A stretch of DNA of 64,000 bases from a virus. Lineage: Duplodnaviria > Caudoviricetes. Shown piece after piece: positions 32,331 to 62,452 of this stretch. How positions within the stretch are numbered: position 1 is the stretch's first letter; every line of letters starts with the position of its first letter. The notes under the pieces are model-generated. The model saw nothing but the letters and a program-made list of their open reading frames with translations, was not told where the DNA came from and ran no database searches. A program made the position numbers and the translations under genes. Location: the IMG/VR virus record IMGVR_UViG_3300024322_000001; one strand, given 5' to 3'.

Positions 32331-32816
32331 TTATCTTACTTCTGTTAGTCCTACTCTATCTGCTCTTGTTAAATGGCAATCAACAGTTATAGAAACTGAT
32401 GATCCAAATCCAGAAGCATAGTTAGATAGGTTATACGATTTATCTCTACCTAAGAATAGTTGATTTTCTCTTACTGAATCTACTTCATAGAAGTCATTAT
32501 GCCATTGAATGATGTCTCCTACTTCCGGAACTACCTGAGAGTCTGCTAAATCCTGTCTAATAAATGCAAATGATGCTTCTCTACCTAAATCTACACCAAA
32601 TTCCTGTACATCGTATACTTGATCACCTCTGGTTATTAAGCAATACATCTTAATTGCATTCCAATATGTCTTTTCTAATGCTTCTCCGTATAAATTAACG
32701 TCTAAATCCTCTAAACTGAGTTTATGGTATAGTACTTCCTGTTCAATTATGTCTTTTAAAAGCTCACGATTGATGTTTACAAGTAAATCAAAGTCTCTAT
32801 TAGATCCAAATAGCAT
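32331..32816 (-). CDS. Head closure/neck protein (gp14-like)
   Basis: NLYGEA, FGVD, PEVGDII.W...FYEV. Confidence 0.65.
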   Translation of the reverse strand: MLFGSNRDFDLLVNINRELLKDIIEQEVLYHKLSLEDLDVNLYGEALEKTYWNAIKMYCLITRGDQVYDVQEFGVDLGREASFAFIRQDLADSQVVPEVGDIIQWHNDFYEVDSVRENQLFLGRDKSYNLSNYASGFGSSVSITVDCHLTRADRVGLTEVR

Positions 32817-33115
32817 TATTTTTCTTCTATTGTTTGTTCACCTACTTCTATCACAGCTATATCACTGTATTTAGCTTTGGCATTAGTTTTTAAAGCGTCA
32901 AAAGCTTCTTTAGCTTCTTTTTGGCTTATTATCTTTACTTTATAGGTAGCTCTATTATTAGTACTGTCTTTAGAAGCTACAGTACAGGTAGTTACACCAG
33001 GTAAAGCACGAATAGCATCGTCATACCCTTCAGGGCCGTCTTCAGTAAAGGTAACTTGTACCATTGCCTCGTACGTTCTGTACTCTATTTCTAATATAAT
33101 ATCTAATAACTTCAT
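32816..33115 (-). CDS. Hypothetical protein with MKLxxIILE leader
   Basis: 99 aa; IRALPGVT core. Confidence 0.65.
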   Translation of the reverse strand: MKLLDIILEIEYRTYEAMVQVTFTEDGPEGYDDAIRALPGVTTCTVASKDSTNNRATYKVKIISQKEAKEAFDALKTNAKAKYSDIAVIEVGEQTIEEK

Positions 33116-34257
33116 TAACCTACGTATATTGTCATTGGAATTGATTTTAAGATGTTTTCTACATCTTCTGATTCTTTAGCTTGTGCATCCAACTGGGCTG
33201 ACCTACCTGTTGAGGTTAAAGTTTCTCTTAATTGAGTTAAGAGTGCTGTTTTTTCTGCCCTAGCATCGGTTAATAAGTCGGCTTGATTGAGAGTCGCTTC
33301 AGAACCAGGTACTGGTACTGTTTGATACTTACCTCTTATATAACCTAGCACCTCTTTTGATAAAGCTAACGTGTAGTTGAATATCCATTGACGTCCTACG
33401 CTGTTTATACCTTTATATTCTGGGTTAGAGTAAGGTACTTCTCCTATATTTGTTATAAGACCTGGGTCATTGTTAAAGTTTAGCTTAGATTTATCAACAT
33501 TCTTATAGTATTCGAAGTGCATCTTACCATTTCGACTAGGTATAGGGAATAATCTAAGAGTATTATTTACTATTTCAAAGGAATAAGTAGATTTTCTTAC
33601 TTGATCGTTAAATTCAATAGCTTGAGTCTTTAATATGTCATAAGATGTAGGCATCATTAAGAAATTGACACCGGGACTAAATGATCCGAAGTCAAAAGCT
33701 GTCATTAAAGACTGTACTCCTGTACCTGTACCGGCATATGGGTCAAAATAACGTAATATTGCTGGTGGTGCTTCGTAATACACCTTTCTTATCTCTATAC
33801 CACCTGTTATTCCTTCATTCTCTGCCCATTCATTTAAATCGTAATTCTGTTGATTACCTATAGTATCTATAGAACCTGTATACCTATTTACATTACCGCC
33901 AACTCCTGCTTCAGTCCCGTAATGTCTTGATATTTCAACTATTCTGCTGATGGTAGGATCTACTAATTGATTATTTACTTGACTCCCTGTTGAGACTCCT
34001 TCTAGGCTTAGATAATTTTCTCTAATCTTATAAGTAAATACTTCATTACCGTAAGTTGTTATTGCTTCTTCAAAGCATGCAAACATTTGTTCTTGCTTTA
34101 ACTCTACATCCATAAGAGGGTATCCTAAACGAGTACCCACAAATTTTGCTACTTTTACAGCATCAGATTGAAAAGCCTGATCACTATCGTAGAACCCGAA
34201 AGGAGTATCTCCTGGGGTAAACGTAGCAGTGCCGTCCCATATTTGTATATTTGCCAT
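33115..34257 (-). CDS. Neck/head-tail adaptor protein (gp13-like)
   Basis: RLGYPLMDVEL, WIFNYTLALSKE.LG.IRGKY. Confidence 0.75.
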   Translation of the reverse strand: MANIQIWDGTATFTPGDTPFGFYDSDQAFQSDAVKVAKFVGTRLGYPLMDVELKQEQMFACFEEAITTYGNEVFTYKIRENYLSLEGVSTGSQVNNQLVDPTISRIVEISRHYGTEAGVGGNVNRYTGSIDTIGNQQNYDLNEWAENEGITGGIEIRKVYYEAPPAILRYFDPYAGTGTGVQSLMTAFDFGSFSPGVNFLMMPTSYDILKTQAIEFNDQVRKSTYSFEIVNNTLRLFPIPSRNGKMHFEYYKNVDKSKLNFNNDPGLITNIGEVPYSNPEYKGINSVGRQWIFNYTLALSKEVLGYIRGKYQTVPVPGSEATLNQADLLTDARAEKTALLTQLRETLTSTGRSAQLDAQAKESEDVENILKSIPMTIYVG

Positions 34258-34271
34258 TACTTAAAGTTTTA

Positions 34272-35066: not shown

Positions 35067-36650
35067 TTATACCTGAGCTAAATCAGATACGTAAATCTTA
35101 CCGTAGAATTCTGGACGAATCATCTTCTTAGCATAACGAGTCATCAATCCTTTACGTGGAGTAAAGGTATCTGGATCGTATACTAGAGGAGTCATCATTA
35201 ATGGTACGTAAGGAGCATATACTGCACCTGCTTCCAAGAACTGTCCACCTCTATAACCAGTTAAGATTACGTTTTCAGTCATGTAAGGGTTTTTGTATAC
35301 TTGGAATCTGTTCGCTAAAGAACCGATTTTCTGTACGCCCATTGCAAATTGAGCTTTATCACCGTCAGTTTGTGCAGCATATCCAGGAATTGATTCTAGG
35401 ATTGTTGCAACAGAAGGAGAACATACTACGAAATTTGCTCCACCTCTTAACGTTTTTTGGTGAATCTTGTTAGAAACTTTCTGTAGTTTAGTACCTAAAG
35501 TTTGGAACCACTGACCTTGAGTGTTGTAGAAATCAGAAGTACCTGTAGACCAAGCTGATCCATCCCATACTTTATTGTTTTCTGCAGACCACTTTTCAGT
35601 TGTAGCAGCACCTTGGATTAACATATCAAGTAATTCAAGATCGATCTCCATAGAGATGTACTCAGATAACATTGAAGTCAATTCTGCTTCAGCGTCAATT
35701 GAATGATAAGCATTCAAATCTTGAGCGAATTCTGGAGTCCACTGTGCTTTTAACTTTCTAGTCTTAGCAACAATCGCCTCAGAAGCTAACTGTACGTCGA
35801 TTTCTGGAATAGAAACTGAAGGACTTACATTGTTACCGTCTGCTCCAGAAGCTTCAAAGTCACCTCTTGTGTTATCACCTGGTTGTACGTGGTATTTGAT
35901 TTTCTTGTTACCTGAAGAACCAGCGTCTCCAGTTGCAACAACGAATACGATGTCTGAACCATCTACTCTTGTGTACTGTCCGTAAGAAGCAATACCGTCA
36001 AGTTGGAAAGCTCTTACACCTTCTAAATCTGCATCAGCAGGAGCTGCTAATGTTACAGTATCGAAAGCAGTTAAGTCTAAACTTGCATCGTATCCTACAT
36101 CTGCTAATGAAGCAGTTGCTTGTACAGTTGCAGAAATGTTTCCTGAAGTTTTCTCGTTAATAGAGTAACCGAACTGTCCAGCGCCGTAAAGACCACCAGC
36201 AACGTCAGTATCTACTGCCATTTTAGATGATGCTTCAGTTACGTTACCGTACATGTTGTCTCCGTCACCTCTACCGTTTACAGCAGAACCATATTTAAAG
36301 TCTAGATAAAATACTAGACCTGAAGGTAGGTTCATTGGTTGTACACTTACAAAGTCTTGCGCTACGATTTGAGCGAATACTTTTCTTACAAGTGGTAAAG
36401 CAACACCAGCCCACTGCTCACCTGCACCAGCTGTAAAGCCAGCACCTGTTCCAGAAGCACCTGTGTTGTTTGCTTCAGCTACGATTTGTTTTGCTTGGTT
36501 TTCAAGTACCATTGCCATGTTGTTTTTGGCTTTTTCGTCTTGAATTCCTTCCAACAAACCAGAAGCTGACCACTTATCAGCCAAACGCGCTGCGTCTGCC
36601 TGTAGGCTCTTAAAATTGTTAGAGCTTTCTAATAATTGGTTTAATTCCAT
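35067..36650 (-). CDS. gp23: Major capsid protein (gp23-like)
   Basis: VQPMNLPSGLVFYLDF, AKTRKLKAQWTPEFAQDLNAYH.IDAEAEL, YAPYVPL, TRYA. Confidence 0.95.
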   Translation of the reverse strand: MELNQLLESSNNFKSLQADAARLADKWSASGLLEGIQDEKAKNNMAMVLENQAKQIVAEANNTGASGTGAGFTAGAGEQWAGVALPLVRKVFAQIVAQDFVSVQPMNLPSGLVFYLDFKYGSAVNGRGDGDNMYGNVTEASSKMAVDTDVAGGLYGAGQFGYSINEKTSGNISATVQATASLADVGYDASLDLTAFDTVTLAAPADADLEGVRAFQLDGIASYGQYTRVDGSDIVFVVATGDAGSSGNKKIKYHVQPGDNTRGDFEASGADGNNVSPSVSIPEIDVQLASEAIVAKTRKLKAQWTPEFAQDLNAYHSIDAEAELTSMLSEYISMEIDLELLDMLIQGAATTEKWSAENNKVWDGSAWSTGTSDFYNTQGQWFQTLGTKLQKVSNKIHQKTLRGGANFVVCSPSVATILESIPGYAAQTDGDKAQFAMGVQKIGSLANRFQVYKNPYMTENVILTGYRGGQFLEAGAVYAPYVPLMMTPLVYDPDTFTPRKGLMTRYAKKMIRPEFYGKIYVSDLAQV

Positions 36651-36673: not shown

Positions 36674-37699
36674 TTATTTAATAATTCCAGCTAATTTTTG
36701 CATTCTCTGAACTGCAGAGGAAACTTCGCTAATCACTTCTGGCTTACTTGCTGTAGTTCCAGTTGCTTTGCTTGCTCTTCCTTTGTGTTCTTTGATAGTA
36801 GTCTCTTTTTTAATAACTACATTTTCGTTAACTGTTTCAAATACTAACTTAACTTCTTTAACTGTTTCAGCTTTATCGAAAGCAGCAATAATGTTTACTT
36901 TTTGTGCTTCGTTTAAGTTGTTAGCTTTGAAAATTTTGTTTACATAAAGTAACTTAGAGTTTAGTAAATTAACTTCGTTAAGTTCACTTCTCAAAGTTTC
37001 GATAGTTTCTAAAGCGCTTTTAAGTTCTTCTTTAGTTTCTTCATTAACAGGAGCTTCAATTGCAACTTCTTCCATTGCATCTTCTTCTTTCTTACCTTCT
37101 TCCATTTCTTCTTCGCTTTCGCCTTCTGAAATAGCATCAAGTTCTGCTAATAATTCGTCTAAGTCAATCTCTTCGTCACCTTCTTCGCCAGCCATAGGAT
37201 CGCCCTCGCCTGGTTCTTCTAATTCTGCTCCAGCGTCTAAATCAGCTCCAACTTCAGCTCCCATATCTTCAGCACCTCCGCCCATTTCTTGTGCGATAAT
37301 GTCTCTGATTAGGTCTTTGAAATCTTCAACTGAAAGATCTGATAGATCTTCGTCGTCTGCTGGCTCATCCTCAGATGCAACTTCTTCTTCTTCAGCCTCG
37401 TCTGCAGCTTCTTCTGCATCATCCTCAGCTTCTTCCATTGCTTCTTCTTCACTGTAAGATCCTTCTTCTACTTCTTCTTCGGCTACTTCAGTAGTTACTT
37501 CTTCTACATCATCTTCCATTTCGTTTACTACTTCTTCTTCAACAGATGAATCTTCCATCTCTTGTAGTTTAGCAGCTAACATATCTTTTAGATGAGGAGT
37601 CAAAGACTCTTCTAAAGCTTCCTTAGCGTTAGCAATAGCGGCTTCTCTTACAGACTTAGCTTCAGCAATAGCTTGCTTGAATAAATCTTTGTTTGCCAT
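36674..37699 (-). CDS. Prohead scaffolding/core protein (gp22-like role)
   Basis: Very acidic, coiled-coil, directly upstream of MCP, C-terminal RMQKLAGI. Confidence 0.75.
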   Translation of the reverse strand: MANKDLFKQAIAEAKSVREAAIANAKEALEESLTPHLKDMLAAKLQEMEDSSVEEEVVNEMEDDVEEVTTEVAEEEVEEGSYSEEEAMEEAEDDAEEAADEAEEEEVASEDEPADDEDLSDLSVEDFKDLIRDIIAQEMGGGAEDMGAEVGADLDAGAELEEPGEGDPMAGEEGDEEIDLDELLAELDAISEGESEEEMEEGKKEEDAMEEVAIEAPVNEETKEELKSALETIETLRSELNEVNLLNSKLLYVNKIFKANNLNEAQKVNIIAAFDKAETVKEVKLVFETVNENVVIKKETTIKEHKGRASKATGTTASKPEVISEVSSAVQRMQKLAGIIK

Positions 37700-37828: not shown

Positions 37829-38356
37829 TTATGCAGATGCTGCAACAGCACCAGCTATCTCTGCTCCGACTACTGCTATATCTCTTCCTTTTAGTGCTGC
37901 TTTTACTGCTCCTATAGTAGCGGTTGCTACATTAGCACCTCTAAGAGCTTGCATTGCTCCTATACCTGCTTTGATACCTAATCCTGCTAACATAGCTATA
38001 AATAATCCTTTAGCAACTAATTCTCTTTTCTTTTCATCTCTTACGAAAGGCTTAATAAAACCTGAGATAGCTTTAACTATGTTAACTTCATTATTATGTG
38101 CCCATTTATGAACTGCATCAGCTTTATCAGCTGCTTTATCTAAACCTAGTTTTTTAAGTCCTTTAGCAGCATACTTACCTAAAACGTCTAGTACTGTATT
38201 AGAAGCAAGTGCCCATCCTAATATACCTACTACAGATATAACTTCATTAACTTGTCCTTCTTCTCCTTGTTTACCAAACTCGGCTTCCATAGCTTTTGCT
38301 AATTCTTGACCTAATTGAGTTTCGTCGCTTTCTAATATTATGTGTGCTAATTTCAT
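37829..38356 (-). CDS. Hypothetical protein with MKLxxIILE leader and hydrophobic helices
   Basis: MKLAHIILE.S; VISVVGILGWALA and GLFIAMLAGLGI segments. Confidence 0.65.
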   Translation of the reverse strand: MKLAHIILESDETQLGQELAKAMEAEFGKQGEEGQVNEVISVVGILGWALASNTVLDVLGKYAAKGLKKLGLDKAADKADAVHKWAHNNEVNIVKAISGFIKPFVRDEKKRELVAKGLFIAMLAGLGIKAGIGAMQALRGANVATATIGAVKAALKGRDIAVVGAEIAGAVAASA

Positions 38357-38934
38357 TATGCTCTTAATATATCATTTATAATAGAATCTAAGTTTTGAAA
38401 TTTAGATACTTTTATTTTACCTTCTGATAATGCTACTGGGTTCATAAATGCACCGTGAGTAGAAGGATTTGAAACAAAATCCCAACATACTAGTTCGAAA
38501 TCGTCTTGCACTTCTAATGCACCTTCATTTGTTTGCTGTACTGATCCTGTACCTCTAGATGAGATACCGATTGTATGGCCTGCTTTTATGATTTCTTTTA
38601 CGATGTTTCCGGAAGGAGTATTTAATAACTCTACACGTCCCATAAGGTCGTTTCCTTTCCACCATAAGTCTTTTACTATGTGAGAGGCGTTCTTAAGAGA
38701 GACAATAGGAGACTCAGGGTGATCAAGTTCTCCGAATGCATTACCATTCTCTACAAACTCTTTTATGTACTTTGAGCATTCTCTCTCTAAAATAGGCTTA
38801 CTATATGTACGTCCATTTTGGTTTTTAGATACTGCTCTCTGCATAACCCCTTCGACTTCGTATACACCGGGTCTTTCCTTAGATTCTCTAAGAATTGATT
38901 TGAATGGTGTTACGTCTACTAATAATTGTGCCAT
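38356..38934 (-). CDS. gp21: Prohead maturation protease (gp21-like)
   Basis: NQNGRTY, GELDHP, GISSRGTGS, DFVSNPS. Confidence 0.92.
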   Translation of the reverse strand: MAQLLVDVTPFKSILRESKERPGVYEVEGVMQRAVSKNQNGRTYSKPILERECSKYIKEFVENGNAFGELDHPESPIVSLKNASHIVKDLWWKGNDLMGRVELLNTPSGNIVKEIIKAGHTIGISSRGTGSVQQTNEGALEVQDDFELVCWDFVSNPSTHGAFMNPVALSEGKIKVSKFQNLDSIINDILRA

Positions 38935-38945: not shown

Positions 38946-39356
38946 TTATTGAAAAATATCGTACGCTACTCCTTCGAATACTGAATATGTTAATTTATGT
39001 TCAGTTCCTTCTGGGGTATAGTCCCCATAGAATCCGTCTTCATAGGATACTGGGAATTCTCTGTCTGATTCTTCAGATTTATAATCAGCTACTGTTGATA
39101 GTCTGTGTTTCTCTAATCGCTTAGCTACTACTGCTGCTGGTTCAGGTTCTCCGATATCTACTTGTCCTCCTCCGAGGCCTGCTGTTCCACCGTCCATTTC
39201 AGCTACTATAACATCTTTAGTTATATCGACACCAAATTTTCGAAAAGCTTGCTCAACAGAGTAATCTGCATCTTCCACTACTTCTTCGTTTAATTGTCTA
39301 CTGTTAGTAGTTAAGTTGTTTTCTGTTAAGAACTTTCTTAGGTTAAAATTGTTCAT
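38946..39356 (-). CDS. Putative capsid-internal protein, MNNF-leader family
   Basis: MNNFNLRKFLTENNLTTNSRQLNE leader. Confidence 0.7.
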   Translation of the reverse strand: MNNFNLRKFLTENNLTTNSRQLNEEVVEDADYSVEQAFRKFGVDITKDVIVAEMDGGTAGLGGGQVDIGEPEPAAVVAKRLEKHRLSTVADYKSEESDREFPVSYEDGFYGDYTPEGTEHKLTYSVFEGVAYDIFQ

Positions 39357-39373: not shown

Positions 39374-41683
39374 TTATAATGCTCCGTTGATTGTAGGTGC
39401 TGAAAATACTGTTTGTTTTTCTTCTTCTCCTAAAGGCCTTTCGCCTGAGTTATGAGCATCGATATCTGCTTGAGATATTACTCTAACTTTAGGTTGATCT
39501 AATCCTTTAGTAAACCCTCCTTTAACAGCAGGTCTTAAATCTTTATTGAATGCTTGTTCAATTGCGGGTGCTAGAAAGCCTCCTACTTTTAAACCTTCTT
39601 CATTTCTTATATCTCCTAGAGTGTTGTATACCTTTTGTATCTTACTTCTAGTTTTATCGTAATAAGATTCAATATCAGTTACAATATCCTGTAGAGCTAT
39701 AATAGCTTGTTTCATTCCTTCGTAGCCTCCGTATGTATCAGAGAATTCTGCTAATGCATTAGTTGCAGCTTCATTTATTACTCCTTCTTCTAATACTTTA
39801 AATATAATAGCTTTAATATTCTCTTTAACAGCTTCATCTTTACCCATCGCTTTTTTGATAGCTTTGTCTTTAGCTGCCATATAATCATCTTTATCTACAT
39901 CTCCATCTCCGTCATGATCTTTACCTTTAGCTTCTTCTAGGTTCTCAACCATAAATTGAGTTTCTAAATATTCTAATACGTCTTTTTTAGCAAACTCTAT
40001 CATTCCAGGTTCTGTCATTGGGCCCATTTTCCATTCTTCCCAAGCTTTAATTAACATATTAACACCTTTGTCAAATAAAGGTCCCATGCTCTCTACATAC
40101 CCTCCAGTTTCGTAATCGTTTTCAGTAACTACTTTACCTCCTTGAGATTTTCTGCGTCTACCTTCGTTTACTCCATTGTCGTCATCCCAAGGACCTTTCA
40201 TAATATCAACACCAATGTTGTAATGATCTCCTATGGCGTACATTACCTCTTCAGCTTCTTCTCTTTCTGAAGTATCGTTTTCTTCAGCTCTGTCTTGAAT
40301 AAGAGCAATAAACTCCTGTAGGCTACCTACTCTTTCGTTGATTACTTCTTCAACATCTGCTAAACCTTCATCATCGTCTAAATCTGCTGTCATATCAGTA
40401 TTAACTGGATCTGAACCTTCAAGTTGTTTTCTAACTTTAGAAACACCTTCGTTGAAACTACTTAAAGTCTTTTTAATAGCCGCTCTGAATTTCTTTAAGT
40501 TATCTAATACTTCTGCTTTATTACCTTCTTTAGCAGCATCGATTGCATAAGATAGATGACTACCTTCTGTGTGGTAATTAACATCTTCGAATGAATCAAA
40601 TAATGCTTGCATTTTATCTATCGGTGTGTTTAATCTAACTTTTAATCCTGCTTTGAGCATTCCTTCGTAATCAAAATCACTAGAAAACATTTGACCAAGC
40701 TTGTATAACTTGTCAATTGATTTCATATCTGTATCTTTACCGTATTTAGCAATTCTAGCCATTTCATCATCAGACATAGCTTCTTTAACAAACTTAGCTT
40801 TAGCAGCATCAAAATCTCCTTTATGGAGACTATCAACTACTTTTCTACCTAAAGTTTCTAATTGATCTGCATCTAGTGAATGAGGCTTATTAAATCCTTT
40901 TAAGTACCCTTGGCCTATTGCTCCATAATCTGCTGGGTCAATAACATCTTCTGCAGACTTAGCAACTTTTTCTTGCATATAATCAGCTCCTGATTCGTAA
41001 TTTACTGATAAAAACTCTTGAAAGTTATCCATTACGGCTTGCATGCCTTCATCAGAACCATCTGCTTGTTCTTCCCATTCTGGGTGAGTTTTATAAAAGT
41101 CGTTAATGATTTCATCATCAATTAAACTCTTACCGGTTTTAGGATTAGCATAATATTTTTTAATATAATCAGCTACTGAATCTGCTTGATCATATTCGTT
41201 TACTGGTTTAGTATGATTTTCTTTTAAATCAGCTTTCTTAAGTCCATTATGAACATCTACTTCATTACCTTTTTTAGGCTCAACCATTTGGTCGTGTTTA
41301 TCTACCTTAGAAGATTCTCCTGCTATTAAGTTAATATAGTGATTAGCATCTTTCTGTAAATTAGCAATTACTTTAATTCTAGCTTTCATGTAATCTTCTT
41401 TAGATACATTCCCAGTAGAGTCTATACCCTGTGCTTCCAGTTCTGCATCAATTCCTCTTTCAACTACATTTATAGGAAATTGATCTGCTAATACATCAAT
41501 ATCTTTCTTAACTTCTTTCTTTTCAAAAATAAGACTCTTTTGTTTAAGAATAGATACGGAATCTTTATACCCGTTCCATTGAGTGATGAATTGCGGATAT
41601 GCTTGTCTCATTTGACGGACAAATTCTGCTTCTTGAAGTTTACCTTCTAATACCGCATGATATTTTTGTGTTGCTGTTTTCAT
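39374..41683 (-). CDS. Large acidic modular head-region protein (putative polyprotein) with DxDxDG motif
   Basis: 769 aa; many [ILVM]-x-E sites; DHDGDGDVDKDD. Confidence 0.65.
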   Translation of the reverse strand: MKTATQKYHAVLEGKLQEAEFVRQMRQAYPQFITQWNGYKDSVSILKQKSLIFEKKEVKKDIDVLADQFPINVVERGIDAELEAQGIDSTGNVSKEDYMKARIKVIANLQKDANHYINLIAGESSKVDKHDQMVEPKKGNEVDVHNGLKKADLKENHTKPVNEYDQADSVADYIKKYYANPKTGKSLIDDEIINDFYKTHPEWEEQADGSDEGMQAVMDNFQEFLSVNYESGADYMQEKVAKSAEDVIDPADYGAIGQGYLKGFNKPHSLDADQLETLGRKVVDSLHKGDFDAAKAKFVKEAMSDDEMARIAKYGKDTDMKSIDKLYKLGQMFSSDFDYEGMLKAGLKVRLNTPIDKMQALFDSFEDVNYHTEGSHLSYAIDAAKEGNKAEVLDNLKKFRAAIKKTLSSFNEGVSKVRKQLEGSDPVNTDMTADLDDDEGLADVEEVINERVGSLQEFIALIQDRAEENDTSEREEAEEVMYAIGDHYNIGVDIMKGPWDDDNGVNEGRRRKSQGGKVVTENDYETGGYVESMGPLFDKGVNMLIKAWEEWKMGPMTEPGMIEFAKKDVLEYLETQFMVENLEEAKGKDHDGDGDVDKDDYMAAKDKAIKKAMGKDEAVKENIKAIIFKVLEEGVINEAATNALAEFSDTYGGYEGMKQAIIALQDIVTDIESYYDKTRSKIQKVYNTLGDIRNEEGLKVGGFLAPAIEQAFNKDLRPAVKGGFTKGLDQPKVRVISQADIDAHNSGERPLGEEEKQTVFSAPTINGAL

Positions 41684-49141: not shown

Positions 49142-49177
49142 TGTATTTGTTTTTATATATTTAGACTACTAATTATC

Positions 49178-49441: not shown

Positions 49442-49468
49442 TTTATTTATTTTTATTTGATGTTTATA

Positions 49469-55591: not shown

Positions 55592-56221
55592 TCAATTACT
55601 CCAAATAACGTTTTTGAATTTCTCAGGAGAGAGACCAAAATAGTTAGTTCTCCATTGAGTCTGTTCAAAAAAATCTAAGTCGTACCACTGGTCACGTATA
55701 CTCCATAAAGACTTTGCTACATCGTCCCAATCTAATTTAAGAATAAATTCTTCAATTTCCAACTTTTTTTCAATAACTGCATCATAGTCAAAGCTATCCC
55801 ATTCATAATGGAATACTTCAAATACTGCATCTTTAGAAACATAATCTATTGATATATCGATTCCCCATTTAGGTTTCATTTTCACAAGTTTATATAACAT
55901 CGGATTATATTCCTGAGCAATTGCTTCGATTTGTTCTTTAGCTACAGATTTAAATCCTTTTCTTTCAAATAAATCAGAATGATTAATATGAGCACCGTCT
56001 TTCTTATCCCAGGTAAACCAATCGTACCTCATACAATCTTCATGGCGACGTTCGAATTGTTTATAACCATTACAAACCAAAAAAGCCTGTTCGGCTTTTG
56101 TTAAGTGGTAACCATTTTGGTCAAATAAATCTACAGAGTTAGTATTTTTTAAAACGTCTATGTCTTCTGTTGGGTCTAAAAAATAAGCTTCCTTATGTAG
56201 TTTATTATCTGATAATATCAT
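55592..56221 (-). CDS. Hypothetical protein
   Basis: 209-aa ORF; LFDQNGY, INHS.LFER, KPKWGIDISIDY. Confidence 0.65.
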   Translation of the reverse strand: MILSDNKLHKEAYFLDPTEDIDVLKNTNSVDLFDQNGYHLTKAEQAFLVCNGYKQFERRHEDCMRYDWFTWDKKDGAHINHSDLFERKGFKSVAKEQIEAIAQEYNPMLYKLVKMKPKWGIDISIDYVSKDAVFEVFHYEWDSFDYDAVIEKKLEIEEFILKLDWDDVAKSLWSIRDQWYDLDFFEQTQWRTNYFGLSPEKFKNVIWSN

Positions 56222-56439
56222 TTTTTACCTGATTTCATATTAGCGCACCAGTGATACATCTTACCTTTTTCTCCTCCGTACTTTTTTGCTTTCGCTCTTA
56301 ACGAAGTAACTGAACCTTTACAGGAGGCTCCTGATTTTTTAACTCTACCGGGTTTAGACTTACCTTTAACTTTACCGTCTTTAAAGTTTTCTACGGTAAG
56401 TACTTCTCTTATTAATTCTGTAAGTTGAGTTCTAGTCAT
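56218..56439 (-). CDS. Small basic protein with leader
   Basis: MTRTQLTELIREVLTVE then a Lys/Gly-rich body. Confidence 0.65.
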   Translation of the reverse strand: MTRTQLTELIREVLTVENFKDGKVKGKSKPGRVKKSGASCKGSVTSLRAKAKKYGGEKGKMYHWCANMKSGKK

Positions 56440-56845
56440 TTCTTTCTTGCCAATCCAGTGATACTTCGTTCTTTGTAATCGGTCCTCCTTTAGCCCATGT
56501 TCTACAACTACGAGCAGAGTGACATTTAAAATGATGCATCCAGCAGTACCCTAATCTACCTTCATCATCAGAAGTAACTCCTGGCATACAATCGTCCATT
56601 CTAGGAGAAATGTCAAAAGCAACACAGTTACTACAATTAGTTCCTTTTGCTGCTTCTTCAGTTGTATTCCAGTATTTAGCTATATCTTTCCAATAACTAC
56701 CAGGTTCAGATACATTTAAAGGACCATATTGAATATGCTCTGCTTTGATAGCTGAATCTCTATTTTTAGTATTGAGTTCGAGATCTTGAGTGGCTGCTGG
56801 GCATGCTTCTCTTTTCATCTCTTTTAAAATTCTACTAAGTTTCAT
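56432..56845 (-). CDS. Cys-rich protein with HiPIP-like CxxC..C..CxxW pattern; start refined to MKLSRILKE
   Basis: NCSNCVAF...GYCWMHHFKCHSARSCRTW. Confidence 0.6.
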   Translation of the reverse strand: MKLSRILKEMKREACPAATQDLELNTKNRDSAIKAEHIQYGPLNVSEPGSYWKDIAKYWNTTEEAAKGTNCSNCVAFDISPRMDDCMPGVTSDDEGRLGYCWMHHFKCHSARSCRTWAKGGPITKNEVSLDWQERND

Positions 56846-56846
56846 A

Positions 56847-57689
56847 TTACTTCTTTTTCCAGATTTCACCTCTTCTACATCTAACTACTGCTCCTGAAGC
56901 ATAAGCTGATGGCCATGTATCGTATTTACTTTTAGCTAATCTAGTACATCTATCGTCTTTCTCCATTAGTACCTCGTTAGTCCCAATGAACTTTATAATA
57001 TCATCATTCTGATCTGCCCAAGCTAGTGCTCTTTCAGGGTCTTCATAGTACATGTCCTCAAAAACATCTAAAAGCTCGTTTGCAGTTTTGTAAACTGCTA
57101 AGTTGTCTGGGCTGCGCTGTAATCCGTGGTGTCCTAATTGATTTAAATCAGTAAATAAATCATCTGATGGAAGGTACCTATAATAAGGTCCTTTTTTTAA
57201 TACCTTAAAGTTAGTATTTTGCATTTCATGTACCATTCCAACCACTAAGTTTTGAATATCTTCTTTTGTCTGTTTCTTCCAATCAAAACCTGTGCCTTTA
57301 ATTGTAGAACCAGCTTTAGGATCTGAACCGGCAAATTTGTCCGCTTCTTTTCTATCTTTTGTCGCTTGTGACATTGGCCATTTATAATTACTGCCTTGAT
57401 GTTTACCTTTATACTCTTCTTTTTTTACTGTTGCTTTTTTTGTATTTTTCACGACTGTCTTTCCTTTTTTACCTGCCTTCTTTTTCTTAGCTGCGGTTGC
57501 TGCTCTTTCACCTTTAGTTAAACTTTGTGCTTTTGCTTTCGGTAAGCATCTATCAGGATTCTTCTTATTTTTAGAAGTACCGCATGGGCCAGCTATATTA
57601 CCAGAAGAAGAGATGCGTACCCACTTCTCTTTCTTAAACCAGTCTCTTAAAGACTCTGATACTATATTTGCTATCTCCTTATTTGTCAT
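56847..57689 (-). CDS. Basic modular protein with leader
   Basis: MTNKEIANIVSE then LRDWFKKEKWV..CG..RCLP module and C-terminal WPSAYASGAVVRCR module. Confidence 0.65.
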   Translation of the reverse strand: MTNKEIANIVSESLRDWFKKEKWVRISSSGNIAGPCGTSKNKKNPDRCLPKAKAQSLTKGERAATAAKKKKAGKKGKTVVKNTKKATVKKEEYKGKHQGSNYKWPMSQATKDRKEADKFAGSDPKAGSTIKGTGFDWKKQTKEDIQNLVVGMVHEMQNTNFKVLKKGPYYRYLPSDDLFTDLNQLGHHGLQRSPDNLAVYKTANELLDVFEDMYYEDPERALAWADQNDDIIKFIGTNEVLMEKDDRCTRLAKSKYDTWPSAYASGAVVRCRRGEIWKKK

Positions 57690-58042
57690 TGCTGTTTTAA
57701 TACTTCGGAAAGTAATTTAATTATTACTCCTGCTAATCCTGTAAATAATATCCAAAGAGCTTTAGTTACACCTTCCTTCCATCTTTTAAGCTCTTCTACC
57801 TCTATCATCTTAGTAACAAAGTCTTTATCACCTTGCTGCATTTTGCGTCTAAAAGCTGTGTTTTGATTAGTCTTTACTATAACACCATCTTCTGGGTTGA
57901 GTAGCGTATATTTGAGATCGGAGAGATCTTCTTTAAGACCTTCCATATCCTTTTGCATTTGGATAAGTTCTCCATTGGGCATGCTCTTCTTAATAGAGCT
58001 AAGTTCTTTGAGTACTGACTCAAGTAGTTGCTTCTGTGTCAT
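57686..58042 (-). CDS. Coiled-coil protein with a C-terminal transmembrane helix (holin-like?)
   Basis: ALWILFTGLAGVIIKLL. Confidence 0.45.
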   Translation of the reverse strand: MTQKQLLESVLKELSSIKKSMPNGELIQMQKDMEGLKEDLSDLKYTLLNPEDGVIVKTNQNTAFRRKMQQGDKDFVTKMIEVEELKRWKEGVTKALWILFTGLAGVIIKLLSEVLKQQ

Positions 58043-58074: not shown

Positions 58075-58653
58075 TTACTTAGTATGGTCTTTAAGTAGGC
58101 TAATATAGTTTCTTAAGTCTTCAGTAATTCTACTTTTGTAATCTTTAGATACATCACCCCAATCTTCCTTGTCACCTGCTTCTGTAACCATTGAAATGTT
58201 ATCCTGTAGGCTTTCTGTAACCCATGCTTCTAGGTTTACAATAAATGCTTCAATATTTCCTTTGGTCATTTGCTTTTCATACTCATCATAAAGACCTGCA
58301 TGTTTCAAGCTTGTTTCATATACCACTACACAGTCTAAACAAAATCCATGTATCTTATACATTTTTTCATCTAAACGTTTTTTCATTCTAGTACCACACT
58401 TAGGGCAGCATAACGGCATTCTTATAGCTTTTTTGGCTTTATCTAACTTTGTAATATTCTGCTTAATGCCATTTTTTATAGTCCATTGCTTACCGCCTTC
58501 TTCCCAAATGTCACCTTCTTTGTAATGAGAGTATTTTTTTTGATATCCGGTTTGAGATTTAGTTTTTGCAGAGAAGTCTTTATTTACTATATTTCTAACT
58601 CTTTGTACATCTGCTTGCTTAAACTCTTTTTTAAGTAGAGATTCTTTACTCAT
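58075..58653 (-). CDS. Hypothetical zinc-finger protein
   Basis: CPKC...CLDC. Confidence 0.6.
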   Translation of the reverse strand: MSKESLLKKEFKQADVQRVRNIVNKDFSAKTKSQTGYQKKYSHYKEGDIWEEGGKQWTIKNGIKQNITKLDKAKKAIRMPLCCPKCGTRMKKRLDEKMYKIHGFCLDCVVVYETSLKHAGLYDEYEKQMTKGNIEAFIVNLEAWVTESLQDNISMVTEAGDKEDWGDVSKDYKSRITEDLRNYISLLKDHTK

Positions 58654-59191
58654 ATCCTAATTCTTTTAATCCTTCGATTGCAGGACCGATATCACCGCCT
58701 TTTACTCTAAAAGCTATTCCACCAGAAGCAATCCATTCTTTTATATTTGATTTTTTATCGTCTATTAATATACTGTTAGGATTAGCGTACCTTTGTTTAT
58801 CTGCTGAGTATGCAAATATAACTTTAGGGTTAGGAGATAGATTGTCCTTAGCCCACATATTTTTACCCAGCCTAGATCCATTATCTCTAGAAGGGGAGGT
58901 AAGTAGTGATGGATTATACTTAGAAATAAAGCTCCATAACTCTTGACCTCTTGGCATCCATGGCATTTTACTCCAAAACTTGATACCTACTTTTACGTCT
59001 ATAAGATTCCAGAATCCAGTGGTACCGTATTTATTTTCATACTCTTTAGGAGTCATTCCAGTGTAATGATCAAATCTACTTTCGAAGTCAGTTAATACTC
59101 CGTCCATATCGCAGTATATTTTATACTTCGGTAATTCTTTTTTTTCCGGTATTGGATAAGCTTCCAATAAGTCTACTATACTATTTTTCAT
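58646..59191 (-). CDS. HAD-family 5'(3')-nucleotidase-like phosphatase
   Basis: IYCDMDGVLTDF, LLTSP, ILIDD. Confidence 0.85.
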   Translation of the reverse strand: MKNSIVDLLEAYPIPEKKELPKYKIYCDMDGVLTDFESRFDHYTGMTPKEYENKYGTTGFWNLIDVKVGIKFWSKMPWMPRGQELWSFISKYNPSLLTSPSRDNGSRLGKNMWAKDNLSPNPKVIFAYSADKQRYANPNSILIDDKKSNIKEWIASGGIAFRVKGGDIGPAIEGLKELGYE

Positions 59192-59574
59192 GCAAATATT
59201 TTATAATTTTTTTCTTCGTTATAAGCAGCTACTTCATACGGGTGATTATTATAATCATAACCCATAGAGTAGTACCTTTTCATCCATAACGGAGACTGTA
59301 AATAATGTTGGTATTCATGAATAAGAGTTTCGATAATATGTTTTCTACTCTTCATATTAGGATAGTATACAACTATACTATTATCAGTATTATCAAACTC
59401 AGCATGACAACCATCTTCATCTCCTTGAGCATCTTCTTCTCCGCTATATCTAGCATAAATGTTATGATGTAACTCTACATAAGGAGTACAGTCGTAGAAC
59501 TTAGAATACCCATAGTACTTTTCAATCTTAGGATAAACTTCTTTAATAATACTGTTTACTTGTTCTCTAGTCAT
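59188..59574 (-). CDS. Zincin-like metallopeptidase
   Basis: TLIHEYQHYLQ...HPYEVAAY. Confidence 0.7.
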   Translation of the reverse strand: MTREQVNSIIKEVYPKIEKYYGYSKFYDCTPYVELHHNIYARYSGEEDAQGDEDGCHAEFDNTDNSIVVYYPNMKSRKHIIETLIHEYQHYLQSPLWMKRYYSMGYDYNNHPYEVAAYNEEKNYKIFA

Positions 59575-60180: not shown

Positions 60181-60185
60181 ACATC

Positions 60186-61514
60186 TTAATTAATATGTCC
60201 GTTAATTAACTTAGCAAGACCTTCTGCTAATAACTTAGCTTCATCCTGGAGTGGGTATATAGGGGTAGGTGTTTTTAGGGCTTCTTTAGGTTTGGTGGTA
60301 TTTTCATTTAAAGCATCATCTCCGTTTTTTAAACTATCTTCCCAATTTCTAAAGGTAATATTTCCGATTAGGTATGCTTCTTTTTCTATTTCAAGCAAGC
60401 TATCATCCTCGTTGGTATTTGTTGTACCGTACGTCTTTAGCCTACCTTCTATGTTTTGCATATGATGAACCATTTCATGTGAAAAGGATCTTACTATATC
60501 TTTATTATGTCTACCTTTAACGTATAAAACGATTTCCTTATTATTCGGATCATAATATGCTGTTTTACCAAAAAAGTTATTTGCAGCTACATCATCTTTT
60601 CTAAGCTTAACTTCAGGTAGAGGAACTATATTCATTTTCTGATCAAGCATATACTCTAATAAAGATGCTATATACTCTTTAAGTTTTGGAGCTCTCAACT
60701 CATCATCATTGTTAGATTCTGTAATTGGTACGTCAAACTTAACTACTATATTATCACTGTTAAGGTTTATATTAGTACCGCTAGGAATTAATCGAGATAT
60801 ATAATCATAAAGAAAGTTAAGTTTCTTTTTATCTACTGAACGAGTTATTTCTTCTATAGAGGTATCTTCTTTTTCAAAGTAACCTTCTACAAATCCAGAT
60901 AAATTACTACTTAATATTTCTGCAACTATTTTATCTTTTAAATCTGATAGTATGTTTAGGATTTCTTCTCTAGATAAAACTTCAGGAAAAAAATCTATAA
61001 TATTATCTAAATCACCGGCTAAAATACTTTTTCTAAAATCTGTTGCTCTTACTCCTGATCCGGGTGCTGCTGCTAATGCTAATCCTTGTACGTTAGGTGC
61101 ATTTTTAAAAGTTGTTACTCTTCTTAAGTCAACAAAATCTTTATCTCCTCTAATACCGGTTACAGATACAAACTCTTGATCAGGGTTAGCTTGTGCATAA
61201 TCTTTTGCAGCAAACATTGGATTAGATTCTCCATCGCGTATTTCAACATTACCTAAGTACTTAGAGTATACCTCCCATATAGACATTGATTCTTCCTTAC
61301 TTATACCGTTTCTCTCACCTGCTCCAACAAATACTATAACTTTATCTATCTTAGGTTTTTCACTACTTCTGCCTTTAAGAAGTTCTGCACCTGTTTCTTT
61401 GTAATTATCTTTATTGTATACAGAACCATTATAAGATCCATCTAGTAAAGATTTCACTACATTGAAATGACCTCTGTGAGGTGGTTTATATGCTCCTGGA
61501 TATAATGCTATCAT
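60186..61514 (-). CDS. HxGH nucleotidyltransferase fused to a zincin-like (HExxH) domain
   Basis: YPGAYKPPHRGH, VRATDFR; C-terminal RSFSHEMVHHMQ...EKEAY. Confidence 0.75.
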   Translation of the reverse strand: MIALYPGAYKPPHRGHFNVVKSLLDGSYNGSVYNKDNYKETGAELLKGRSSEKPKIDKVIVFVGAGERNGISKEESMSIWEVYSKYLGNVEIRDGESNPMFAAKDYAQANPDQEFVSVTGIRGDKDFVDLRRVTTFKNAPNVQGLALAAAPGSGVRATDFRKSILAGDLDNIIDFFPEVLSREEILNILSDLKDKIVAEILSSNLSGFVEGYFEKEDTSIEEITRSVDKKKLNFLYDYISRLIPSGTNINLNSDNIVVKFDVPITESNNDDELRAPKLKEYIASLLEYMLDQKMNIVPLPEVKLRKDDVAANNFFGKTAYYDPNNKEIVLYVKGRHNKDIVRSFSHEMVHHMQNIEGRLKTYGTTNTNEDDSLLEIEKEAYLIGNITFRNWEDSLKNGDDALNENTTKPKEALKTPTPIYPLQDEAKLLAEGLAKLINGHIN

Positions 61515-62452
61515 GCTAAAAATGCTTGTACTTTTGTATTTATTTCTGCTACTGAGGAATGTTTTAATTTTTCTTGAAATGTTGGGTTATAAATCATTTC
61601 TACAATATTATCTAGTACTTGATCTGCTTTTTCTTTTCTTTTTTTACTACTCTCTCTGTACTTATCAACTGTAGCTTTGAGTTTATCTTGCCCTGGGCCT
61701 ACTCCGTTTTTTCTGTAAGCTTTTAAAAATGCTATTTTTATAGCTTTATCTTCTGATCTGTTCTCTTTATCCCAACTTATACTACCTACATGTTTTATAA
61801 ATTCTTGTTCTTCCTCAGGTGTCATTTCTACTGGTACAAAGAATGAAGATCCTCCAACGTTATTATCTTCGTTAAATTTTTCTAAGTAATCTTTTACTCC
61901 ACTTAAGCCGGTTTTAGCAGCTTTGTCAAATCCTTCAACTTCTTTTTTGTACTTTCCTCCTCTATCACTAACGAATATAGATAAATTACCTTTTAATTGT
62001 CCATTAAAATCTTCTATTTTAGCATACACGTTTCTCCAGGTTGCAAAAACAGAGTCTCCAGGTATATTTCTTTCTCTAGCCATAAAGTTAGATACGTATG
62101 AGATCATAGGATGAGCATACACCATAACCATATAGACTTCATACCCTAAAGCAAGTAGTTTATCTAAGTTTTTTTGGAAACCTGCTCCTGATGCGGTAGT
62201 GTCCCAAACAAAGCTAATTTTTTCTTCTGCTGCTGCCATTGCGTCTTTGGACGTTTGGTTGGCTGCTGGTCCTAGTTTGTTGTAGTACGGGTGATCTTTG
62301 TCCTCCACGTACTTGTCTGGGTTGAATTGTATTAGGCTGTCTAGGGACAGTTGGTTTAATAAGTATGTTTTCCCTGACCCTGCTCCTCCTGCCATTATTA
62401 CTGCCTTCGGGGACGACTTGTCTTCTAGTATTAGTGTTGATAGCTTTATCAT
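61511..62452 (-). CDS. P-loop kinase (zeta toxin/AAA_33-like) with leader
   Basis: AGGAGSGKT, NPDKY, VWDTT, RER; leader MIKLSTLILE. Confidence 0.75.
   Translation of the reverse strand: MIKLSTLILEDKSSPKAVIMAGGAGSGKTYLLNQLSLDSLIQFNPDKYVEDKDHPYYNKLGPAANQTSKDAMAAAEEKISFVWDTTASGAGFQKNLDKLLALGYEVYMVMVYAHPMISYVSNFMARERNIPGDSVFATWRNVYAKIEDFNGQLKGNLSIFVSDRGGKYKKEVEGFDKAAKTGLSGVKDYLEKFNEDNNVGGSSFFVPVEMTPEEEQEFIKHVGSISWDKENRSEDKAIKIAFLKAYRKNGVGPGQDKLKATVDKYRESSKKRKEKADQVLDNIVEMIYNPTFQEKLKHSSVAEINTKVQAFLA

What the first reader, a model, noticed from the sequence alone, without database searches (positions are those of the whole stretch)
32816..62452. Genome-scale capsid-cargo system: about 15 unrelated ORFs carry short leaders ending in prohead-protease-type [ILV]-x-E sites
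Seen: three leader classes on otherwise unrelated ORFs around the head genes. Class 1, MNNF[DN]LRKFLxE: 38946, 47827, 48845, 49178, 49469. Class 2, M..L..[IL][IL]xE: MKLLDIILE 32816, MKLAHIILE 37829, MNLIDRVILE 46291, MHKLEKLILE 50174, MKLSRILKE 56432, MKNSIVDLLE 58646, MIKLSTLILE 61511. Class 3, M....L..[IL][IV]xE: MKRSELTSLVKE 41680, MTRTQLTELIRE 56218, MTNKEIANIVSE 56847, MTREQVNSIIKE 59188. The MCP itself starts MELNQLLE. Established: T4 internal proteins use a ~10-aa capsid-targeting sequence (MKTYQEFIAE type) removed by gp21, which cuts after [IL]-x-E; a gp21 homolog is at 38356-38934. Inference: this phage has greatly expanded that logic into a tagging code that loads many proteins, including enzymes (kinase, nucleotidase, nuclease, peptidase), into the head for co-injection with the DNA.
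Basis: partly seen in the sequence, partly recalled or inferred. Interest (0 to 1): 0.9.

Follow-up and report, generated by a model that had tools for sequence, protein, structure and literature searches.

The report
Capsid-address leaders on many phage proteins
In this marine Flavobacterium-type phage about sixteen otherwise unrelated proteins, a few enzymes among them, start with a short conserved tag ending in a cutting site for the phage's head protease, most likely a much enlarged version of the phage T4 system that loads proteins into the virus head, though no experiment has yet shown it.

Summary
All 16 listed N-termini are in the sequence. A fixed test motif (two hydrophobic residues, any residue, Glu at residue 7-14) fits 15 of 63 ORFs against 3.1% at internal positions. 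It fits 0 of 29 tail-side ORFs and 15 of 34 head-side ORFs.

The pattern repeats in the cultured relative vB_FspM_immuto. It is absent from an unrelated AT-rich Flavobacteriia phage. It is weaker in T4, where the same test recovers the known gp21 substrates.

- The leaders are conserved in about 160 related metagenomic loci.
- The cut-site residue is Glu, not Asp (422 against 29).
- Synonymous codons vary within the leaders.
- AlphaFold leaves the leaders outside the enzyme folds.
- The leaders sit on many unrelated proteins. Class 1 is on 19 body families in these loci and on 1,442 database clusters.
- One relative puts a class-2 leader on a complete superoxide dismutase.

The window encodes a T4-type head module, including a prohead protease 40% identical to T4 gp21.

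Best reading (0.65): these are T4-type capsid-targeting propeptides, used on a much larger scale than in T4. Packaging, cleavage and co-injection are untested. "Nuclease" cargo is unsupported, and "genome-scale" overstates roughly 8-10% of genes. First-stage notes on this genome had flagged the same stretch.

The parts
38356..38934 (-). Prohead protease, T4 gp21 type
   Evidence: Pfam Peptidase_S77 E 1.3e-35. PHROG 207 head maturation protease. 40% identity to T4 gp21 over 156 aa, with the residues aligned to T4 His85 and Ser140 conserved. It carries its own conserved SILRE|S site at residue 17.
35067..36650 (-). Major capsid protein, gp23 type. Candidate sites at E8, E34, E50 and E59.
   Evidence: Pfam Gp23 E 2.7e-82. 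The T4 cleavage site FLTE|A aligns with window QIVAE|A at E59. MELNQLLE|S is invariant in 10 homologues.
36674..37699 (-). Candidate scaffold protein: acidic, helical, lying between protease and MCP
   Evidence: Its position matches T4 gp22. It has the highest [ILV]xE density in the window, 6.2 per 100 aa. The N-terminus QAIAE|AK resembles T4 gp22 QLIAE|AQ. The C-terminal RMQKLAGII tail is invariant in 17 relatives. BLAST against gp22 gives no significant match, E 0.17.
38946..39356 (-). Class-1 leader ORF (136 aa), next to the protease
   Evidence: Starts MNNFNLRKFLTE|N. Homology to other class-1 proteins is confined to the leader.
47827..50158 (-). Array of four class-1 leader ORFs (332, 98, 87 and 229 aa) with unrelated bodies
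   Evidence: F4, L6, F9, L10 and E12 are invariant in 26 sequences. DNA identity runs from about -12 to +57 relative to the start codon. Codons vary synonymously.
37829..38356 (-). Class-2 leader ORF (175 aa) with a Gly/Ala-rich hydrophobic body, between protease and scaffold
   Evidence: The ILE|SDE junction is invariant in 11 homologues. In L006 the orthologue carries a class-1 leader in front (..ETEILKE|SDE). In immuto the homologous body carries a class-3 leader.
41680..41910 (-). Class-3 leader ORF (76 aa, mature pI 10.1), in the position of T4 gp67/68
   Evidence: MKRSEL..LVKE|V is kept in 38 of 38 distinct homologue N-termini.
50174..52462 (-). Class-2 leader ORF (762 aa) with a mosaic body
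   Evidence: MHKLEKLILE|S is conserved on bodies of 353-869 aa that share only some modules.
46291..47814 (-). ORF (507 aa) with VILE at residue 10, inside a conserved 45-aa N-terminal domain. Weaker candidate.
   Evidence: Conservation runs on past the Glu (..LEWSYKTKKGYPDIN..). Variants with LYTEW lack the aliphatic P3 residue.
32816..33115 (-). Class-2 leader ORF (99 aa) after the head completion gene
   Evidence: Starts MKLLDIILE|I. The only homologue found (immuto) has LVNE|V at residue 8.
56218..56439 (-). Class-3 leader ORF (73 aa, mature pI 10.3)
   Evidence: ELIRE|V is kept in 88% of homologues. Its basic KGKS.PGRVKK module also ends other leader-bearing proteins.
56432..56845 (-). 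Class-2 leader ORF (137 aa from the ATG), Cys-rich
   Evidence: Homologues start at the ATG (MKFISILKE|M) or carry ..LVIE|G at residue 13.
56847..57689 (-). Class-3 leader ORF (280 aa), Lys-rich, pI 9.7
   Evidence: Leaders vary from 12 to 22 aa, but the junction [ILV]xE|SLRDWFKKEKWV is invariant.
57686..58042 (-). It has a hydrophobic C-terminal segment.
   Evidence: The motif is kept in 58 of 58 homologue N-termini. The hydrophobic C-terminus makes a capsid cargo role less obvious.
58646..59191 (-). 5'(3')-deoxyribonucleotidase-like HAD enzyme with a leader
   Evidence: PHROG 2643 matches residues 22-165. AF2 gives pLDDT 90 overall, but residues 1-20 score 58-68, with a helix at 5-10 and beta1 at 24. 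The Foldseek top hits include deoxyribonucleotidases, ranks 3-6. SIVDLLE|AYP is kept in 98% of 54 homologues.
59188..59574 (-). Class-3 leader ORF (128 aa) with an HEYQH motif
   Evidence: Atlas label 'SprT-like', a lead only. The leader is partly conserved; some homologues have non-canonical forms.
61511..62452 (-). P-loop kinase (zeta-toxin / polynucleotide-kinase-like) with a class-2 leader
   Evidence: Pfam Zeta_toxin E 3e-12. L4 and E10 are invariant, I8 is nearly so, and residues 11-14 vary across 29 homologues. AF2 gives residues 1-10 pLDDT 48, with beta1 at 16-21. Foldseek matches are weak.
39374..41683 (-). ORF (769 aa) between portal and protease with AVLE|G at residue 13. Mosaic body.
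   Evidence: The motif is present in most homologues but not all (AVKNG, AVKQG occur).

Best explanation
The window is the head and tail half of a T4-like-headed myovirus of the Flavobacterium phage immuto lineage. About 16-20 of its proteins start with an 8-13 residue amphipathic leader of the form M-x(3-9)-hydrophobic-[ILV]-x-E.

Proposed mechanism, by analogy with the T4 capsid targeting sequence:
1. The leader docks the protein onto the scaffold core while the prohead assembles.
2. Once the shell has closed, the gp21-type serine protease at 38356-38934 cuts after the Glu and frees the mature protein inside the head.
3. Some freed proteins stay with the DNA and enter the host with it. Others may be degraded or expelled, as scaffold fragments are.

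The lineage uses several interchangeable leader classes. It attaches them to fast-evolving small proteins, to large mosaic proteins and to complete enzymes.

Shown here: the motif, its enrichment, its conservation, its preference for Glu, its modularity, its position outside the folded domains, and a T4-type protease and head module.

Inferred: docking, cleavage, retention in the virion and injection.
For: Enrichment and its location. Controls behave as expected: T4 positive, phi14:2 negative.

Family-by-family conservation of the [ILV]xE junction across about 160 IMG/VR loci.

Glu, not Asp, at P1: 422 against 29 at N-termini, compared with 1.3:1 internally. This matches the T4 result that Asp at CTS position 10 blocks processing (PMC9026906).

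Selection acts on the protein: codons vary synonymously and P2 is free.

Modularity:
- Class 1 sits on 19 unrelated body clusters in these loci and on 1,442 50%-identity clusters in the database.
- Class 2 sits on 22 unrelated bodies and class 3 on 7.
- Leader classes are swapped on one homologous body.
- A complete Fe/Mn superoxide dismutase in relative L088 carries an 11-residue leader.

AF2 leaves the invariant leaders of the kinase and the nucleotidase unstructured and outside the fold.

The protease is 40% identical to T4 gp21, with the His and Ser conserved. The T4 gp23 cleavage site aligns with an I-V-A-E|A site in the MCP.

The scaffold has the highest site density in the window.

In immuto and in at least 117 metagenome clusters, a further leader copies the scaffold's invariant C-terminal tail and is followed by I-T-E.

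A promoter-like TATTTATA precedes tail genes, head genes and the 52466, 57686 and 59188 operons alike.
Against: - There are no proteomic, N-terminal or fusion data for this phage or for immuto. Cleavage and packaging are inferred.
- The class 2 and 3 patterns are loose, so a few members may be chance matches. In exonuclease 63048 the motif is not kept in register, and in 46291 the motif lies in a conserved folded-looking domain.
- 57686 ends in a hydrophobic segment and 37829 is largely hydrophobic, which is unusual for soluble head cargo.
- The leaders are too short to show homology with the T4 CTS, and the scaffold shows no sequence similarity to gp22.
- Entering the core does not mean being injected. 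T4 gp22, gp67 and gp68 are cut and lost.
- The whole genome was not available, so the genome-wide count is unknown.
Confidence: 0.65

Rival explanations
1. The leaders are propeptides recognised by the prohead protease, or tags for core assembly. The tagged proteins are transient assembly or regulatory factors: they enter the core or are cut, and are then degraded or expelled. They are not an injected payload. Enzymes may simply be switched on or off late in infection.
For: In T4, gp22, gp67 and gp68 carry the same kind of site and are lost after cleavage (PMC9026906). Several leader ORFs lie in the gp67/68 position. Site density is highest in the scaffold and in 41910.
Against: The leaders sit on hundreds of fast-evolving, unrelated bodies and on complete enzymes such as SOD, a kinase and a nucleotidase. 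This fits an accessory payload like the T4 IPs and Alt better than essential assembly factors. T4 gp21 is regarded as active only inside proheads (own knowledge).
Confidence: 0.17
2. The motifs are ordinary N-terminal amphipathic helices. Their apparent excess comes from paralogy, AT-rich 5' coding bias in a Shine-Dalgarno-less host, and class definitions made after the fact.
For: The genome is AT-rich (GC 0.32-0.39) and leader codons are AT-rich. The class 2 and 3 definitions are loose. At least one match (63048) is not conserved in register.
Against: - 0/29 ORFs in the tail half of the same window and 5.8% in the rest of immuto.
- No excess in phi14:2, a 29.6% GC phage of a Flavobacteriia host.
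- The excess survives counting paralogues once.
- The E:D ratio is 14.6 at N-termini against 1.3 internally.
- The junction is invariant next to variable linkers.
- AF2 does not pack the leaders onto the domains.
Confidence: 0.08
3. The class-1 leader is mainly a DNA-level cassette junction: a conserved start region that promotes recombinational exchange of downstream genes or carries a translation signal. On this reading its peptide has no targeting role.
For: The five copies share near-identical DNA from about -12 to +57. Bodies differ between close relatives.
Against: Synonymous codons vary while the amino acids stay fixed. The motif also occurs in-frame inside longer proteins, flanked by further LxE sites. 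Other leader classes share the peptide pattern but not the DNA. The two roles are not exclusive.
Confidence: 0.05

Closest known systems
Phage T4 capsid targeting sequence (CTS) of internal proteins IPI/II/III and Alt, removed by gp21
   Same: - An N-terminal leader of about 10 residues ending hydrophobic-[IL]-x-E (T4: MKTYQEFIAE, MELITELFDE).
- A Peptidase_S77 protease and a gp20/gp23-type head module.
- The leader is conserved while the mature proteins are diverse (PMC3012670, PMC9026906).
- An enzyme, Alt, is among the cargo.
   Different: - The host and lineage are very distant: a Flavobacteriia phage whose MCP shows about 30-34% identity to gp23 in local BLASTP alignments.
- There are several leader classes rather than one, and a far higher density: 15 of 34 ORFs here against about 8 of 271 in T4.
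- The class-1 leader is 12 residues, often followed by a second site near residue 24.
- The leaders are attached to complete metabolic-type enzymes.
- Nothing has been tested experimentally.
Polymorphic internal-protein loci of T-even phages (diverse IPs that share only the CTS)
   Same: Arrays of unrelated small genes that share a conserved leader and vary between close relatives (PMC3012670; window 47827-50158).
   Different: The scale is far larger: 1,442 clusters at 50% identity carry the class-1 leader. Among the 150 best-scoring of these clusters, about half (74) also carry the leader internally, in polyprotein-like chains.
Processed head, inner-body and ejection proteins of giant phages (phiKZ gp175, 201phi2-1, SPN3US gp245)
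   Same: Many head proteins (19 in 201phi2-1) are cut after Glu by a gp21-related protease. Propeptides carry redundant sites (PMC9026906).
   Different: From my own knowledge, those sites are S/A/G-x-E rather than aliphatic-x-E. No short shared N-terminal address tag has been described for them. Their genomes and capsids are much larger.
Encapsulin cargo-loading peptides (from my own knowledge)
   Same: A short conserved peptide added to diverse enzymes directs them into an HK97-fold shell.
   Different: The encapsulin tags are usually C-terminal, are not removed by a protease, and do not involve a virus or DNA.

Membership tests
T4-type CTS / gp21-processed prohead core proteins | A Peptidase_S77 (gp21-type) prohead protease with its catalytic His and Ser | tested here: met
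   Pfam PF03420 E 1.3e-35. 40% identity to T4 gp21, with the residues aligned to His85 and Ser140 conserved. That these two are the catalytic residues is from my own knowledge.
T4-type CTS / gp21-processed prohead core proteins | T4-type head module: gp20 portal, small core proteins, protease, scaffold, gp23 MCP | tested here: met
   Portal_T4 E 4.6e-73, Gp23 E 2.7e-82 and Terminase_6N. Gene order 44709 / 42794 / 41910 / 41680 / 39374 / 38946 / 38356 / 37829 / 36674 / 35067. The scaffold is assigned by position and composition only.
T4-type CTS / gp21-processed prohead core proteins | An N-terminal propeptide of 10-19 residues ending [LI]-x-E | tested here: met
   Leaders of 8-13 residues ending [ILV]-x-E on 16 or more ORFs.
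T4-type CTS / gp21-processed prohead core proteins | Glu strictly required at P1 (Asp is not processed) | tested here: met
   Statistical only: E 422 against D 29 at N-terminal sites, compared with 1.3:1 internally. E10 is invariant in the kinase family and E12 in class 1.
T4-type CTS / gp21-processed prohead core proteins | The leader is conserved while the mature parts are diverse and unrelated | tested here: met
   19 (class 1), 22 (class 2) and 7 (class 3) unrelated body clusters. 1,442 database clusters. Leader swapping on one body.
T4-type CTS / gp21-processed prohead core proteins | The MCP is matured at a site of the same type | tested here: met
   T4 gp23 FLTE|A aligns with window QIVAE|A at E59. 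This is sequence only; cleavage was not observed.
T4-type CTS / gp21-processed prohead core proteins | The leader is sufficient to encapsidate a foreign protein, and is removed in the prohead | not testable with these tools
   Needs fusion and packaging experiments and N-terminal mapping of virion proteins.
T4-type CTS / gp21-processed prohead core proteins | Sequence homology of the leaders to the T4 CTS | tested here: inconclusive
   Only the pattern is alike: aromatic or aliphatic at P4, aliphatic at P3, Glu at P1. Ten residues are too few to show common descent.
Giant-phage (phiKZ-type) processed head proteins | Cleavage motif S/A/G-x-E (small residue at P3) | tested here: not met
   P3 here is I, L or V in nearly all conserved sites. 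The phiKZ motif is taken from my own knowledge and from the description in PMC9026906.
Sec/Tat/lipoprotein signal peptides | A positively charged n-region, a hydrophobic core of 10 or more residues, and a signal peptidase site | tested here: not met
   Read directly from the sequence: the leaders are 8-13 residues, amphipathic, hold charged residues throughout and end in Glu.

The most novel reading that the evidence does not exclude
An abundant marine phage lineage runs a multi-class, plug-and-play address system. It uses T4-CTS-like leaders, plus a leader that copies the scaffold's own C-terminal tail. The system loads dozens of proteins per phage, drawn from well over a thousand cargo families in nature, into the capsid for delivery with the DNA. 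The cargo would include complete enzymes (superoxide dismutase, P-loop kinase, deoxyribonucleotidase, an HExxH protease) and protease-cut polyproteins.
Probability: 0.4. Interest if true: 0.85.

Novelty: new variant of a known kind. Interest (0 to 1): 0.66.

Why it matters
If the leaders work as proposed, one short sequence rule would pick out the injected protein arsenal of a very common group of ocean phages directly from metagenomes. Such proteins are likely anti-defence and host-takeover factors. Today they are nearly all "hypothetical".

It would also show that the T4 capsid-targeting principle is ancient and has expanded greatly outside the enterobacterial T-even phages. It would offer natural short tags, and a cultured phage (immuto), for packaging foreign proteins in a Bacteroidota system.

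The scaffold-tail-mimic leader suggests a second, independently testable way of entering a capsid.

Tried and rejected
- **Whole genome:** none is held for this window, so counts outside the window come from immuto only.
- **The look-up of encoding contigs:** I could not check the genomic context of the two-leader 'polyprotein' database hits, nor whether they are true fusions.
- **Family searches:** Pfam and PHROGs gave nothing for most cargo bodies.
- **Scaffold against T4 gp22:** BLAST found no significant similarity.
- **Exonuclease 63048 as a leader protein:** rejected. NILE alternates with NILKQ and NILKE among homologues.
- **46291:** downgraded, because conservation continues 35 residues past the Glu and variants lack an aliphatic P3.
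- **52466 (1028 aa):** has no N-terminal leader.
- **NMN-adenylyltransferase-like 60186 and 59608:** have no leader, so 'peptidase cargo' cannot rest on them.
- **AT-rich coding bias:** rejected as the explanation on the controls.
- **Cultured phages:** tblastn of a class-1 protein against 50,697 phage records found only immuto.
- **Literature:** the full-text search found no paper that holds the class-1 motif.

Full report
**What the window is.** All genes lie on the minus strand. The nearest named relative is Flavobacterium phage vB_FspM_immuto, 160 kb, with about 74% DNA identity over the head genes. Its full annotation was fetched.

Positions 32-46 kb hold a T4-type head module:
- terminase, 44709-46283
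- gp20-type portal, 42794-44683
- Peptidase_S77 protease, 38356-38934
- an acidic candidate scaffold, 36674-37699
- gp23-type MCP, 35067-36650

The protease is 40% identical to T4 gp21. The residues aligned to T4 His85 and Ser140 are conserved. Positions 1-32 kb hold tail, baseplate and glycosylation genes.

**The observation.** For 56432 the ORF list starts at a GTG, but homologues begin at the internal ATG that gives MKLSRILKE.

To avoid classes drawn after the fact, I fixed one regex before counting: [ILVFM][ILV].E with the Glu at residue 7-14.

| Genome or region | ORFs that fit | Comparison |
|---|---|---|
| Window, all ORFs | 15/63 | 3.1% at internal offsets, p 8e-10 |
| Window, class-1 paralogues counted once | 11/59 | p 2e-6 |
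| Window 1-32330 against 32331-64000 | 0/29 against 15/34 | Fisher 1.6e-5 |
| immuto 100-135 kb against the rest | 13/38 against 11/191 | 0/25 in the tail block |
| Cellulophaga phage phi14:2 (crAss-like, 29.6% GC) | 4/120 | equal to its background |
| T4 | 20/271 | 3.4% background |

The T4 hits include ipII, ipIII, alt, gp21, gp22, gp24 and gp68. It is specific to this lineage and to the head-side half of the window, and it is denser than in T4.

**Conservation.** Two scans of IMG/VR gave 160 related loci, around TerL and around the nucleotidase gene. Read family by family, the [ILV]-x-E junction is kept:
- ILE|SDE in the 37829 family
- LVKE|V in the 41680 family (38 of 38)
- MHKLEKLILE|S on bodies of 353-869 aa
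- [ILV]xE|SLRDWFKKEKWV behind leaders of 12-22 residues in the 56847 family
- LILE, then a variable 4-residue linker, then the P-loop in the kinase. L4 and E10 are invariant in 29 sequences and I8 is nearly so.
- SIVDLLE|AYP in the nucleotidase

Where the motif looks accidental, as in exonuclease 63048, it drifts between NILE, NILKQ and NILKE.

The site residue is Glu 422 times and Asp 29 times at N-termini of 1,171 non-redundant ORFs. Internally the ratio is 1.3:1. In T4, Asp at this position blocks processing (PMC9026906).

In the class-1 core the amino acids are fixed while codons vary: Leu uses TTA, CTT, CTC and CTA; Phe uses TTT and TTC; Glu uses GAA and GAG. P2 is free. Selection therefore acts on the peptide.

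**Modularity.**
- The class-1 leader has F4, L6, F9, L10 and E12 invariant. It is found on 45 ORFs that fall into 19 mutually unrelated body clusters.
- Between the window and immuto, class-1 proteins are alike only in their first 24-40 residues.
- A profile of the leader finds 1,442 clusters at 50% identity among 1.84 billion representatives.
- In my own loci the class-1 core is N-terminal 49 times and internal 0 times.
- Among the 150 best database hits, 74 also have an internal copy, often preceded by another LxE site (..ALQE|G-FDLRKFL..). These look like polyproteins.
- Class 2 sits on 22 unrelated body clusters and class 3 on 7.
- Leaders are exchanged on one homologous body. 37829 has MKLAHIILE|SDE. 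Its orthologue in L006 (TerL 96% identical) has a class-1 leader in front of ..EILKE|SDE. Its immuto homologue has a class-3 leader.
- In relative L088 a complete Fe/Mn superoxide dismutase carries the 11-residue leader MKLSKLILENK. The Sod_Fe_N profile positions 1-82 match residues 12-92.

**Leaders lie outside the folds.**
- Nucleotidase: the AlphaFold2 model has mean pLDDT 90, but only 58-68 for residues 1-20. A short helix lies at 5-10 and the first strand at 24. Its Foldseek top hits include 5'(3')-deoxyribonucleotidases, at ranks 3-6.
- Kinase: mean pLDDT 85, but 48 for residues 1-10, with the first strand at 16-21. It weakly resembles zeta/PezT toxins and polynucleotide kinase.

Invariant residues in a segment that the model does not pack onto the domain point to a linear motif.

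**Links to the assembly machinery.**
- The T4 gp23 maturation site FLTE|A aligns with QIVAE|A (E59) in the window MCP. The protease's specificity is therefore probably conserved.
- The candidate scaffold has the highest [ILV]xE density, 6.2 per 100 residues. Its N-terminus (..QAIAE|AK) resembles that of T4 gp22 (..QLIAE|AQ).
- The scaffold's C-terminal tail RMQKLAGII is invariant in 17 relatives. The same nine residues, followed by T-E, form the N-terminus of two immuto ORFs. They also begin at least 117 metagenome protein clusters whose bodies diverge after the Glu. A cargo tag that copies the scaffold's own tail is independent support for a capsid address. That scaffold tails bind coat proteins is from my own knowledge of other phages.
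- A promoter-like TATTTATA occurs 21 of 23 times on the gene strand. It lies before tail genes, head genes and the 52466, 57686 and 59188 operons. This suggests co-expression with structural genes, as an inference.

No data show cleavage, encapsidation or injection.
- Entry into the core need not mean delivery. T4 gp22, gp67 and gp68 are cut and lost.
- 57686 has a hydrophobic C-terminus and 37829 is largely hydrophobic.
- 46291 carries the motif inside a conserved 45-residue domain.
- 'Nuclease' cargo has no support. 'Peptidase' rests on an HEYQH motif and an Atlas label.
- The NMN-adenylyltransferase-like 60186 has no leader.
- 'Genome-scale' overstates roughly 8-10% of genes.

**Comparison with what is known.** The T4 CTS, the diversity of T-even internal proteins that share only the CTS, and the suggestion that the CTS is a general way for T4-like phages to load proteins are all published (PMC3012670, PMC9026906). 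Extensive Glu-specific processing is known in giant phages.

The following appear to be undescribed:
- these leader families
- their number per genome
- their spread over more than a thousand cargo clusters
- their attachment to complete enzymes
- the scaffold-tail mimic

No paper in the searched library holds the class-1 motif, and among 50,697 phage records only immuto carries it.

I file this as a new variant of a known kind. Confidence is 0.65 for the capsid-targeting mechanism. It is higher for the class-1 and head-module proteins and lower for the enzyme block at 56-62 kb.

Noticed in passing
window 36674-36715 (scaffold C-terminus); L001:11675-12139 and L002:25061-25456 (immuto): The scaffold's invariant C-terminal tail RMQKLAGII recurs as the core of an N-terminal leader (MKKQILSEQF.RMQKLAGIITE|S). 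It is found on two immuto ORFs and on at least 117 metagenome protein clusters with divergent bodies. This is a possible scaffold-mimic capsid tag. No such leader-bearing ORF lies in this window.
   Followed up: partly
L088:8495-9139: A relative encodes a complete Fe/Mn superoxide dismutase with an 11-residue class-2 leader in front of the canonical N-terminus.
   Followed up: yes
database proteins P0002-P0046: Many metagenome proteins carry the class-1 leader twice, once at the N-terminus and once internally. The internal copy often has no Met and is preceded by another LxE site, as in protease-cut polyproteins. Their contigs could not be inspected.
   Followed up: partly
window, 21 sites on the minus strand, e.g. 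8349, 9983, 34272, 42782, 44699, 55582, 58058, 59590: TATTTATA lies in short intergenic gaps upstream of tail, head and cargo operons: 21 of 23 copies are on the gene strand, against 14.5 expected on both strands. It is a candidate phage promoter element. It is the reverse complement of the T4 late promoter TATAAATA.
   Followed up: partly
window 39374-41683, 47827-48825, 50174-52462, 52466-55552: These four large ORFs and their relatives share modules in different orders and vary greatly in length between close relatives (353-1336 aa). 52466 has no N-terminal leader.
   Followed up: partly
window 37829-38356: The 175-aa protein between protease and scaffold has a leader followed by Gly/Ala-rich hydrophobic stretches. 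It may be a membrane-active ejection protein.
   Followed up: no
window 56218-56439 and relatives (L126, L109, L121, L141): A very basic module (..NFKDGK.KGKS.PGRVKK..) forms the whole body of the 73-aa protein. It also forms the C-terminal end of several longer, otherwise unrelated leader-bearing proteins.
   Followed up: no
L165:18966-19130 (T4 gene 61.1): The T4 hypothetical protein gp61.1 (54 aa) starts MKTFKEFIKE, a near copy of the IP capsid targeting sequence.
   Followed up: no
window 41910-42764: This 284-aa protein directly after the portal has a highly conserved N-terminus with LIFE|L at residue 16. Its [ILV]xE density is the second highest, 5.6 per 100 aa. It may be a second core or scaffold protein.
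   Followed up: no
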